Below, piece after piece: positions 62,506 to 63,348 of a DNA stretch of 64,000 nt. The notes beneath the pieces are model-generated. The model was not told the DNA's origin and did not search any database. It worked only from the letters and a program-made list of their open reading frames with translations. The stretch is from Escherichia coli (GTDB lineage Bacteria > Pseudomonadota > Gammaproteobacteria > Enterobacterales > Enterobacteriaceae). How positions within the stretch are numbered: position 1 is the first letter of the stretch; every line of letters starts with the position of its first letter. A program made the translations under genes and the position numbers. The stretch is taken from the NCBI RefSeq assembly GCF_044324875.1, contig NZ_CP172185.1. One strand, written 5' to 3'.

Positions 62506-63156
62506 TTGGCGCAAAATGGCGGCATTTCCTCATTTCTCCTTCGGAGCATCTTACGCGCTATAACCACTCTCGTTTTTTCCTATTCCCATGCAGATGAAGC
62601 ACTACGCAATGAACTTGAGAAGCATCTCTCCCCGCTGAAGCGAACCGGGAAGATCACAACATGGCACGATCGCCGCATCGTTCCTGGTCAGGAGTTCGAA
62701 CGTCAGATCGACCACTATTTTTCGCAAGCAGATATCATCCTGATCCTGATCAGCAGTGACTTTATTGCTTCTGATTACTGCTATCAGGTAGAGATGAAAA
62801 ACGCACTGGAACGGCATGACCGGGGCGAGGCGGTGGTCATTCCGGTAATTTTAAGAAACTGTGCATGGCATCAGTTAGAATTCGGCAGCATTATGGCGGC
62901 GACTATCGACGGTAAACCCATCACTAAGTTTGCCACCCACGATGAAGGCTACGTTCAGGTCGTCGAGGCTGTCTCGCGTGCCATTGCCCGGATGGAAGCC
63001 AAAAAACCACAGCAAACCATACATATCCCTTCACCGGCTCCGGCGAATCCGATCTTTCAGGGAGTAGATTCCGTTTTTACACCGTGTTCAAGCAACCTTA
63101 TTCTATCTGTTATAGCCAGGATAATGTTGTTCGAAACAGTATTAACGAAACTCTAA
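62506..63156 (+). CDS. TIR-domain protein (possibly disrupted: non-ATG start, 3' frameshift)
   Basis: TIR core LVFSYSHADEALRNELEKHL...ADIILILISSDFIASDYCYQVEMKNALE...VVIPVIL; only an in-frame TTG is available as start (stop at 62482..62484); reading frame changes near 63090..63150 and continues to 63311. Confidence 0.65.
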   Translation: MAQNGGISSFLLRSILRAITTLVFSYSHADEALRNELEKHLSPLKRTGKITTWHDRRIVPGQEFERQIDHYFSQADIILILISSDFIASDYCYQVEMKNALERHDRGEAVVIPVILRNCAWHQLEFGSIMAATIDGKPITKFATHDEGYVQVVEAVSRAIARMEAKKPQQTIHIPSPAPANPIFQGVDSVFTPCSSNLILSVIARIMLFETVLTKL

Positions 63157-63326
63157 GCCTTGCTGATAACAGCCAGACTCTTGGTTTTCGTGCTCTGATG
63201 GGAGGCTTCAGTCGTGGAACTTCACGAGACGAACTATTGACCAATGAAGGTATGTCGGAACATCTCTGGGAAATGTTCTTCGGGCTAATCAAGCAAAGAA
63301 TGTCCCGATAATTTGCCATATCACAG

Positions 63327-63348
63327 TCGGGCATACTGCCCGATTTTT
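63327..63348 (+). terminator. Rho-independent terminator (tcgggca-tac-tgcccga followed by TTTTT)
   Basis: 7-bp stem, 3-nt loop, T5 run, 16 nt after the stop at 63311 of the shifted frame. Confidence 0.55.

What the first reader, a model, noticed from the sequence alone, without database searches (positions are those of the whole stretch)
62506..63348. TIR-domain gene with non-ATG start and internal frameshift, flanked by Type I R-M and an Mrr-type nuclease
Seen in sequence: a bacterial TIR core (FSYSHAD...ISSDFIASDYCYQVEMKNALE...VIPVIL) with a candidate catalytic Glu. The only in-frame start is TTG at 62506 with no convincing RBS. Coding signal shifts frame near 63090..63150 and runs to 63311, and a canonical intrinsic terminator follows at 63327..63348. 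Established knowledge: TIR proteins are NADase or signal-generating components of Thoeris and other anti-phage systems. Inference: this is either a decaying TIR defence gene (no ThsA-like partner is visible in the window) or one expressed by an unusual start or frameshift.
Basis: partly seen in the sequence, partly recalled or inferred. Interest (0 to 1): 0.55.

Follow-up and report, generated by a model that had tools for sequence, protein, structure and literature searches.

The report
Decaying stand-alone TIR defence gene remnant
This is a broken copy of a single-gene bacterial TIR immune gene in an E. coli defence island: its ATG start has mutated to ATA and a 232-base deletion has destroyed its second domain, so it is an ordinary decaying gene rather than an unusually expressed one.

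Summary
Window 62506-63156 (+) encodes a TIR domain with the conserved Glu. TTG 62506 is the only canonical in-frame start, the frame changes at about 63104, and a hairpin plus T-run follows at 63325-63353.

The cause is now clear. The window is E. coli chromosome. Full-length relatives encode a 323-327 aa protein with an N-terminal TIR and a C-terminal Pfam 'Y4lF' domain. The window copy has two lesions:
- **Start codon.** The ancestral ATG, present in every outgroup examined, is ATA at 62560 in all 100 E. coli genomes of this allele group.
- **Deletion.** A 232-bp (3n+1) deletion at 63104/63105 removes the core of the Y4lF domain and strands the 3' end out of frame. About 41 genomes share the same junction, so it is not a sequencing error.

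Sister alleles carry further independent lesions: two nonsense codons and a 1-bp deletion.

No ThsA-like partner occurs here or in nine other genomic contexts. The family behaves as a stand-alone gene in defence islands.

Verdict: a pseudogenising TIR-Y4lF gene. Programmed frameshifting is not supported. Interest is low. The intact family, and its frataxin-like domain shared with CHAT and CAP12-type TIR fusions, is the more interesting lead.

The parts
62506..62508 (+). TTG, the only canonical in-frame start. PGAP uses it in identical genomes. It is specific to this lineage and has a poor ribosome-binding site.
   Evidence: In the nearest ATG-type relatives (L003, L008) this leader frame is closed by a stop at codon -14 and the triplet is TCG.
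62543..62546 (+). GGAG, a Shine-Dalgarno-like motif conserved upstream of the ancestral start, with a 13-nt spacer.
   Evidence: GGAG(C/T) is conserved 11-13 nt upstream of the start in L003, L004, L008, L011 and L015.
62560..62562 (+). ATA, the mutated ancestral ATG start codon of the TIR-Y4lF gene.
   Evidence: Every outgroup has ATG here. All 100 E. coli genomes of this allele group are identical over the 60 nt around the ATA. PGAP calls the ATA as the start in NZ_CP029747.
62575..62898 (+). TIR domain, intact in the window copy.
   Evidence: Pfam TIR_2 E=4.1e-14, residues 24-131 of the 216-aa ORF. PADLOC PDLC00420 E=3.4e-89.
62791..62793 (+). GAG codon for the conserved Glu, the candidate NADase catalytic residue.
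   Evidence: Invariant E78 in 38 homologues. Aligns with the Glu of Cat1.
62737..62751 (+). (ATCCTG)x2+ATC hexamer repeat inside the TIR domain (encodes ...IILILIS...). Its length varies in frame among sister alleles.
   Evidence: L006 has -6 bp and L007 has +12 bp at this repeat.
63104..63105 (+). Junction of the 232-bp deletion (TA microhomology). The deletion removes residues ~182-259 of the 327-aa protein.
   Evidence: Alignment with the full-length allele L002. L006 and L007 have the same junction.
63106..63156 (+). Out-of-frame tail read after the deletion, ending at TAA 63154-63156.
   Evidence: The tail ...LSVIARIMLFETVLTKL* has no counterpart in full-length proteins.
63106..63311 (+). 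Stranded 3' end of the gene (...ICYSQDNVV...KQRMSR*), now in the +1 frame. It is the remnant of the last strands and C-terminal helix of the Y4lF domain.
   Evidence: It is identical in sequence to the C-terminus of the 327-aa protein.
63325..63353 (+). Intrinsic-terminator-like hairpin plus T-run that ends the original gene.
   Evidence: Conserved in the full-length allele.

Best explanation
The locus is a pseudogenising allele of a stand-alone, two-domain defence gene.

**The intact gene.** It has an N-terminal TIR domain, probably an NADase effector with a conserved Glu, joined by a disordered linker to a C-terminal 'Y4lF' domain (Pfam PF27176). The Y4lF domain is predicted as a helix, a six-stranded sheet and a helix, resembling frataxin. 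By inference, the intact protein works like other single-protein bacterial TIR systems. The C-terminal domain would sense a phage cue or control assembly, and the TIR domain would then deplete NAD+ and abort the infection.

**What happened in this lineage.**
1. The ATG start mutated to ATA. This change is shared by all 100 carriers.
2. A 232-bp deletion flanked by a 2-bp microhomology then removed the core of the Y4lF domain and shifted the frame.

**Result in the window.** The copy can at best give trace amounts of a 198-216 aa TIR-only fragment. It most likely has no defence function.
For: **Shown**
- The window is 100% identical to E. coli chromosomes such as M7424.
- Full-length alleles are 327 aa. 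They differ from the window by a 232-bp segment and a few SNPs.
- 59 genomes keep that segment out of the 100 that carry the allele group.
- The deletion junction is identical in L006 and L007, even though their flanking SNPs differ.
- Every outgroup has ATG at the position of 62560. This includes a Salmonella copy with the same leader sequence.
- Sister alleles carry further disabling mutations: Gln->TAA, Glu->TAA and a 1-bp deletion. PGAP itself flags the PCN033 copy as 'frameshifted; internal stop'.
- Long-term dN/dS between lineages is 0.06-0.12. Within the ATA lineage it is 0.3-1.8, on few sites.
- The full-length protein matches PADLOC PDLC00420 end to end (E=8e-181). The window ORF matches only positions 2-177 of 319.
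- The same C-terminal domain is fused to CHAT and to a CAP12/Pycsar-type TIR.

**From the literature**
- AUA initiates at roughly 0.02-3% of AUG in E. coli (bioRxiv 10.1101/063800).
- Single-protein TIR systems in E. coli are triggered by phage proteins (PMC11350192).
Against: - PGAP still annotates the 216-aa ORF as a protein in most genomes.
- The TIR domain itself is intact in the window.
- About 50 genomes keep a full-length ORF behind the ATA, so that allele may be weakened rather than dead.
- The within-lineage dN/dS rests on only 2-11 substitutions, and comparisons within a population inflate it anyway.
- No expression data were available.
- The NADase and abortive-infection mechanism of the intact family is inferred, not tested.
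Confidence: 0.88

Rival explanations
1. The gene is expressed as a full product by an unusual route. Translation would start at TTG 62506 or ATA 62560, and a programmed +1/-2 ribosomal frameshift in the 63084-63156 overlap would join the two frames.
For: The two frames overlap by about 70 nt, and the downstream frame stays open to the original stop.
Against: - The two-frame layout comes from a 232-bp deletion that is absent from full-length alleles and from every outgroup.
- A joined product would still lack about 77 residues: the first helix and strands 1-3 of the Y4lF domain.
- Sister alleles with the same deletion have gained nonsense codons.
- No homologue shows a conserved frameshift.
Confidence: 0.02
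2. The frame change and the odd start are sequencing or assembly errors in an otherwise ordinary intact gene.
Against: - The identical 1041-bp sequence is in at least 18 complete genomes from different laboratories and hosts.
- The deletion is 232 bp, not a homopolymer slip.
- It is found in about 41 genomes on diverged haplotypes.
- The ATA is in all 100 genomes.
Confidence: 0.01
3. The truncated TIR-only protein (198-216 aa) is kept because it still does something. It might be a low-level NADase, a partner or decoy for another TIR system, or a signal-producing ThsB-like enzyme serving an effector elsewhere in the genome.
For: - The TIR domain and its Glu are intact in the window.
- The deletion-only haplotype is found in roughly 30 genomes (extrapolated from a spread sample).
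- TIR-only ThsB proteins of about 200 aa do exist. PADLOC files the family under ThsB.
Against: - The start codon is lost and the alternative TTG has no good ribosome-binding site.
- Other deletion-bearing alleles carry nonsense codons inside the TIR domain, so the TIR part is not under visible constraint.
- No ThsA-like gene lies within 9 kb.
- The family never sits next to ThsA in the contexts examined.
Confidence: 0.07

Closest known systems
TIR-Y4lF proteins of Enterobacterales (Pfam PF13676 + PF27176; PADLOC HMM PDLC00420 'ThsB'; e.g. WP_024179470.1, WP_089615801.1)
   Same: The window ORF is 99% identical at the DNA level to the 5' 544 nt and 3' 208 nt of the WP_024179470.1 gene. It has the same leader, the same terminator and the same island position.
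   Different: It lacks 232 bp (residues ~182-259) and is frameshifted. Like the whole E. coli allele group, it has ATA where other members have ATG.
Thoeris ThsB (the TIR signal synthase of ThsA/ThsB systems)
   Same: Both have a TIR domain with the conserved Glu. PADLOC's ThsB profile set includes a model that matches this family over its full length.
   Different: No ThsA (SIR2/SLOG or Macro-TM) or other Thoeris effector lies beside it in any of ten contexts. It carries an extra C-terminal domain. The best NCBIfam Thoeris model hit is far below its cut-off (16.7 bits against 220).
Single-protein TIR anti-phage systems of E. coli (TIR-V, TIR-VI, TIR-IX; Wang et al. 2024, PMC11350192)
   Same: These are stand-alone TIR genes in E. 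coli chromosomes. They are expressed from their own promoters, are triggered by phage structural proteins and need the TIR active site. This is the working model for the intact family.
   Different: Identity with any of those clusters could not be checked, because their sequences are not held here. The window copy is broken.
Cat1 (CRISPR-associated CARF-TIR NADase, PDB 9mud)
   Same: It is the best sequence match among solved structures for the TIR domain (E=9e-07, residues 6-102), including the Glu motif.
   Different: Cat1 has a different partner domain (CARF rather than Y4lF) and is activated by cyclic oligoadenylate.
Frataxin / CyaY / Nqo15 fold
   Different: Sequence identity is only 6-15%, with no evidence of iron or Fe-S function. 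This is a resemblance in fold, not evidence of homology.

Membership tests
TIR domain superfamily | Significant match to the TIR profile HMMs | tested here: met
   Pfam TIR_2 E=4.1e-14 and TIR E=7e-08. Foldseek on the full-length model returns plant, animal and bacterial TIR domains.
TIR domain superfamily | Conserved catalytic Glu of NADase-type TIRs | tested here: met
   E96 of the window ORF (E78 in homologues) is invariant in 38 sequences and aligns with the Glu of Cat1. This is sequence-level evidence only.
TIR domain superfamily | NAD+ cleavage activity | not testable with these tools
   Needs an enzyme assay.
TIR-Y4lF family (PADLOC PDLC00420; Pfam PF27176 C-terminal domain) | Full-length two-domain architecture (~320 aa) | tested here: not met
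   The window ORF covers only model positions 2-177 of 319, because 232 bp of the C-terminal domain are deleted. It is a remnant of a member, not an intact member.
TIR-Y4lF family (PADLOC PDLC00420; Pfam PF27176 C-terminal domain) | Orthology with full-length members (same locus, near-identical flanks) | tested here: met
   99% DNA identity on both sides of the deletion to NZ_CP029747, with the same neighbouring genes.
Thoeris system | ThsB-type TIR protein | tested here: inconclusive
   It matches a PADLOC model labelled ThsB. The best NCBIfam Thoeris model hit is far below its cut-off.
Thoeris system | Adjacent ThsA or other signal-activated effector in the same operon | tested here: not met
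   None in the window or in the 9 kb beyond it. The neighbours there are an Mrr-like PDC-S02 protein, MkoC and an HNH protein. None in nine other contexts.
Programmed ribosomal frameshift gene | Two-frame organisation conserved among homologues | tested here: not met
   All intact homologues are single ORFs. The frame change is a lineage-specific deletion.
Pseudogene (decaying gene) | Loss of the ancestral start codon | tested here: met
   ATG changed to ATA at 62560.
Pseudogene (decaying gene) | Frame-disrupting lesion relative to intact orthologues | tested here: met
   A 232-bp (3n+1) deletion.
Pseudogene (decaying gene) | Independent disabling mutations in sister alleles / relaxed constraint | tested here: met
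   Two different nonsense codons and a 1-bp deletion in L006, L007 and L019. Within-lineage dN/dS is 0.3-1.8, against 0.06-0.12 between lineages (the within-lineage counts are small).
Pseudogene (decaying gene) | Absence of protein product | not testable with these tools
   Needs Ribo-seq or proteomics.

The most novel reading that the evidence does not exclude
The intact TIR-Y4lF gene may be a stand-alone abortive-infection system that has not been characterised. This applies to the ATG-start copies in about 8 E. coli genomes and many Enterobacterales, and possibly to the full-length ATA allele in about 50 E. coli genomes, which could be a version with weakened translation. In this reading the frataxin-like Y4lF domain is a new sensing or assembly module, reused by TIR, CHAT-protease and CAP12-type TIR effectors. 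The window copy would be a dead derivative that marks recurrent loss of a costly gene.
Probability: 0.3. Interest if true: 0.45.

Novelty: already known. Interest (0 to 1): 0.15.

Why it matters
For this locus, little. It is a routine case of a defence gene eroding in a defence island, and RefSeq already annotates the same sequence, as a pseudogene in one strain.

It has some value as a worked example of stepwise loss: first the start codon, then a deletion, then nonsense codons. It also shows how annotation pipelines handle such a gene inconsistently, calling TTG in one genome, ATA in another, a pseudogene in a third and nothing in a fourth.

The parent family is the more useful lead. It is a widespread single-gene TIR protein whose C-terminal domain is uncharacterised. 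That domain is also fused to caspase-like (CHAT) and CAP12-type TIR effectors. Recent systematic Thoeris surveys deliberately left out stand-alone TIR proteins.

Tried and rejected
- **Literature search for 'Y4lF'.** No papers found.
- **Sequence search of PDB with the full-length protein.** Only weak TIR matches, and nothing for the C-terminal domain.
- **Full-length AlphaFold model.** Only moderate confidence (pLDDT 66), and its Foldseek hits were all TIR domains. I modelled the C-terminal domain alone, which worked.
- **Other Y4lF architectures.** I hoped the 150-260 aa Y4lF proteins would show new N-terminal domains. Most of the 35 mid-length ones whose N-termini I read are N-terminally truncated TIR fragments or mis-called starts. 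The shorter class was not inspected.
- **TTG 62506 as a real, possibly compensatory, start.** Rejected as unsupported. It is lineage-specific, its leader frame is closed in the nearest relatives, and its ribosome-binding site is poor. I estimate (not a tool result) that an open 18-codon leader with a start-type codon arises by chance roughly one time in three.
- **A 15-codon upstream ORF.** ATG 62517 to TAA 62562-62564 overlaps the ATA as ATAA, which could suggest a coupling device. Its ATG is absent from L003 and L008, so I did not pursue it.
- **A functional link to Type I R-M**, in the manner of PrrC guarding EcoprrI. Type I R-M lies nearby in about half of the contexts. The neighbours otherwise vary: BREX, MmeI with SIR2-HerA, MkoC, or no defence genes at all. 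I treat this as defence-island co-location only.
- **Supplementary data of Wang et al. 2024.** Needed to see whether this family is one of their 64 clusters, but the files are not held.

Full report
**1. Checking the observation**

The ORF at 62506-63156 (+), 216 aa with a TTG start, is present, and so is a second ORF in another frame at 63084-63311. The first ORF matches Pfam TIR_2 (E=4.1e-14, residues 24-131) and TIR (E=7e-08). An in-frame stop lies at 62482-62484, and TTG 62506 is the only ATG/GTG/TTG before the domain. The nearest purine-rich motif is 17-18 nt upstream. A hairpin with a 9-bp stem at 63325-63345, followed by a T-run, lies just after the second ORF.

**2. Where the window comes from and what the intact gene looks like**

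The 1041 bp around the finding are 100% identical to the chromosomes of at least 18 complete E. coli genomes, including M7424 and M00057. Another group of genomes matches in two pieces that span 1273 bp.

In one of these, NZ_CP029747 (locus L002), the gene is a single 984-nt CDS of 327 aa, WP_024179470.1. Pairwise alignment shows that the window lacks 232 bp relative to this allele and otherwise differs by a few SNPs. The junction falls at window 63104/63105 and is flanked by a 2-bp TA microhomology.

Because 232 = 3x77+1, the reading frame shifts. The upstream frame reads about 17 foreign codons and then stops at 63154-63156. The authentic C-terminus (...ICYSQDNVV...KQRMSR*) is left in the +1 frame.

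**3. The deletion is not a sequencing artefact**

The 231-bp deleted segment is present in 59 of the E. coli genomes. The 60 nt around the start region are present, 100% identical, in 100 genomes. So about 41 complete genomes carry the deletion. They come from many laboratories, hosts and countries.

Loci L006 (strain A10) and L007 (PCN033) have exactly the same junction on haplotypes that differ by SNPs and small indels. The deletion is therefore a real, inherited allele.

**4. The start codon**

More distant E. coli copies (L003 at 77% DNA identity; L004 and L005 at 80%) begin with ATG ACn nCT CTn GTT TTT TCC TAT TC. This ATG sits exactly at the position of window 62560, where the window and L002 read ATA. 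Salmonella (L008, with the same leader ...cggagcatcttacgcgct), Serratia and several metagenomic homologues also have ATG there.

The ATA is thus a derived G-to-A change in the initiation codon. All 100 E. coli genomes of this allele group share it.

- PGAP is inconsistent across genomes. It calls the ATA as the start in L002 and the TTG in L001. It calls a pseudogene ('frameshifted; internal stop') in PCN033 and only an internal fragment in A10.
- The TTG is not conserved. In L003 and L008 the triplet is TCG, and that leader frame carries a stop at codon -14.
- AUA supports initiation at only about 0.02-3% of AUG in E. coli reporter assays (bioRxiv 10.1101/063800).

**5. Continuing decay in sister alleles**

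| Allele | Lesions beyond ATA |
|---|---|
| Window | Δ232 only |
| L006 | Δ232, a CAA-to-TAA nonsense codon inside the TIR domain, a 6-bp loss in an (ATCCTG)n repeat |
| L007 | Δ232, a GAA-to-TAA nonsense codon, a 12-bp gain in the same repeat |
| L019 | keeps the 232 bp, but has a 1-bp deletion at CDS position 651 and is annotated as two CDSs |
| L002 | none; full length |

Extrapolating from the evenly spaced listing, roughly half of the 100 carriers have at least one lesion beyond the ATA.

Nei-Gojobori estimates give dN/dS of 0.06-0.12 between the ATA lineage and the ATG lineages, which indicates strong long-term constraint. Within the ATA lineage the values are 0.3-1.8. That is in the expected direction, but it rests on only 2-11 substitutions per comparison and is only suggestive.

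**6. What the intact family is**

The full-length protein matches PADLOC model PDLC00420 (labelled ThsB) end to end, at E=8e-181 for L004 and E=1.6e-153 for L002. The window ORF matches only model positions 2-177 of 319. The best NCBIfam Thoeris model hit falls far below its cut-off.

The database search found a large, well-conserved family of about 325 aa across Enterobacterales, with precomputed Pfam domains TIR/TIR_2 plus PF27176. The context tool names PF27176 'Y4lF'.

- **Structure.** An AlphaFold model of the C-terminal 151 residues, built on a 68-sequence alignment, is confident (pLDDT 90.6). It shows a long helix, a six-stranded antiparallel sheet and a C-terminal helix.
- **Distribution.** A search of 1.84 billion representative proteins with this domain found 706 clusters, always with the domain at the C-terminus. 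Most are TIR-Y4lF.
- **Other fusions.** A few members are CHAT-Y4lF or DUF2513 plus CAP12/Pycsar-type TIR plus Y4lF. Most of the mid-length hits I inspected are truncated TIR fragments.
- **Inference.** A common C-terminal module attached to different immune effector domains suggests a sensing or assembly role. This is inferred, not shown.
- **What the deletion removes.** It takes out the first helix and strands 1-3 of this domain.

**7. Partner genes and context**

In the window the gene is transcribed divergently from a Type I R-M operon (hsdR, hsdS and two tandem hsdM genes). It converges on an Mrr-like restriction endonuclease.

Beyond the window end, identical genomes show the following, in order:
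- the Mrr-like protein, which is PADLOC candidate PDC-S02;
- a 1171-aa protein matching MkoC (Mokosh type II) at E=0;
- a 125-aa hypothetical protein;
- an HNH endonuclease;
- integrase remnants.

The island lies next to nanS-nanM-nanC and the fim operon.

No SIR2/SLOG, Macro-TM or other Thoeris effector is present. In nine further contexts there is no ThsA-like neighbour and no constant partner. These are E. coli L003 and L004/L005, Salmonella L008, Serratia L011, a non-island site L015, a BREX-embedded copy L020, L024, Photorhabdus L025 and Pectobacterium L027. Type I R-M is close by in about half of them and an MkoC-like gene in three, as expected for shuffled defence islands.

The family therefore behaves as a stand-alone gene, and the 'missing ThsA' is not part of its decay.

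**8. Comparison with what is known**

A recent systematic survey of TIR signalling systems explicitly set aside TIR domains found in stand-alone proteins (bioRxiv 10.64898/2025.12.03.692087). Wang et al. 2024 (PMC11350192) tested 32 E. coli TIR clusters. They found single-protein systems (TIR-V, TIR-VI, TIR-IX) that are triggered by phage portal or tail-fibre proteins and that need the TIR active site. I could not determine whether the present family is one of their clusters, because no supplementary text is held.

By analogy, the intact TIR-Y4lF protein most likely acts as a sensor-effector that depletes NAD+ on infection. This mechanism is inferred.

**9. Verdict**

The feature is real and fully explained as a defence gene in the course of being lost. 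First the start codon went (ATG to ATA), then a 232-bp frameshifting deletion of the second domain followed, and relatives have accumulated further nonsense and frameshift mutations.

Programmed frameshifting and sequencing error are both contradicted by the comparative data. A residual role for a trace-level TIR-only fragment cannot be excluded but has no support. The exact sequence is already present and annotated in RefSeq genomes. Novelty and interest are low for this locus. The uncharacterised parent family and its Y4lF domain are a modest lead.

Noticed in passing
window 59303-62364 (-): The Type I R-M operon next to the TIR gene carries two tandem hsdM paralogues (487 aa, and 499/533 aa depending on the start) upstream of one hsdS (58152-59306) and one hsdR (55085-58147). 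Both match Type I methyltransferase models strongly. The arrangement is conserved in the related genomes.
   Followed up: partly
window ~51370-55004 (+); L023 627-4258: A 633-aa N-6 DNA methylase with a fused half specificity (S-like) domain (MTase_I over residues 86-426, Specificity_I over 460-624) sits directly after a 577-aa AAA family ATPase. This may be a separate two-gene modification or defence module.
   Followed up: no
window 63496-64000 (-) and beyond (L001 10117-16301): The Mrr-like restriction endonuclease that runs off the window end matches PADLOC candidate system PDC-S02 (E=1.5e-80). Next to it, outside the window, is a 1171-aa MkoC (Mokosh type II, E=0), then a 125-aa unknown protein and an HNH endonuclease. 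A MkoC-like gene also neighbours TIR-Y4lF in Pectobacterium and Photorhabdus.
   Followed up: partly
window 62737-62751 (+): The hexamer repeat (ATCCTG)2ATC inside the TIR coding sequence (encoding ...IILILIS...) varies in frame among E. coli alleles, by -6 bp in strain A10 and +12 bp in PCN033. This looks like replication slippage.
   Followed up: partly
window 62517-62564 (+): A 15-codon upstream ORF (MAAFPHFSFGASYAL*) has a stop that overlaps the mutated start as ATAA. Its ATG is absent from the closest ATG-type relatives, so it is probably fortuitous.
   Followed up: partly
L020 4781-11667 (metagenome contig ERZ25067590): A TIR-Y4lF homologue, preceded by a small ParD-like gene, is embedded inside a BREX locus between the PglX methylase and PglZ.
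   Followed up: no
L011 7922-9763, L025 4906-6750: In Serratia and Photorhabdus the TIR-Y4lF gene is transcribed divergently from a conserved pair: a ~240-aa protein with no Pfam hit, and an HTH + Peptidase_M78 protein (370 aa). This is the only neighbour pattern seen twice in different genera apart from R-M and MkoC.
   Followed up: no
window 62560; L001 9127 vs L002 9181 vs L006 vs L007: RefSeq/PGAP annotates the same locus in four different ways in near-identical genomes: a TTG start, an ATA start, a pseudogene, or only an internal fragment called a hypothetical protein.
   Followed up: yes
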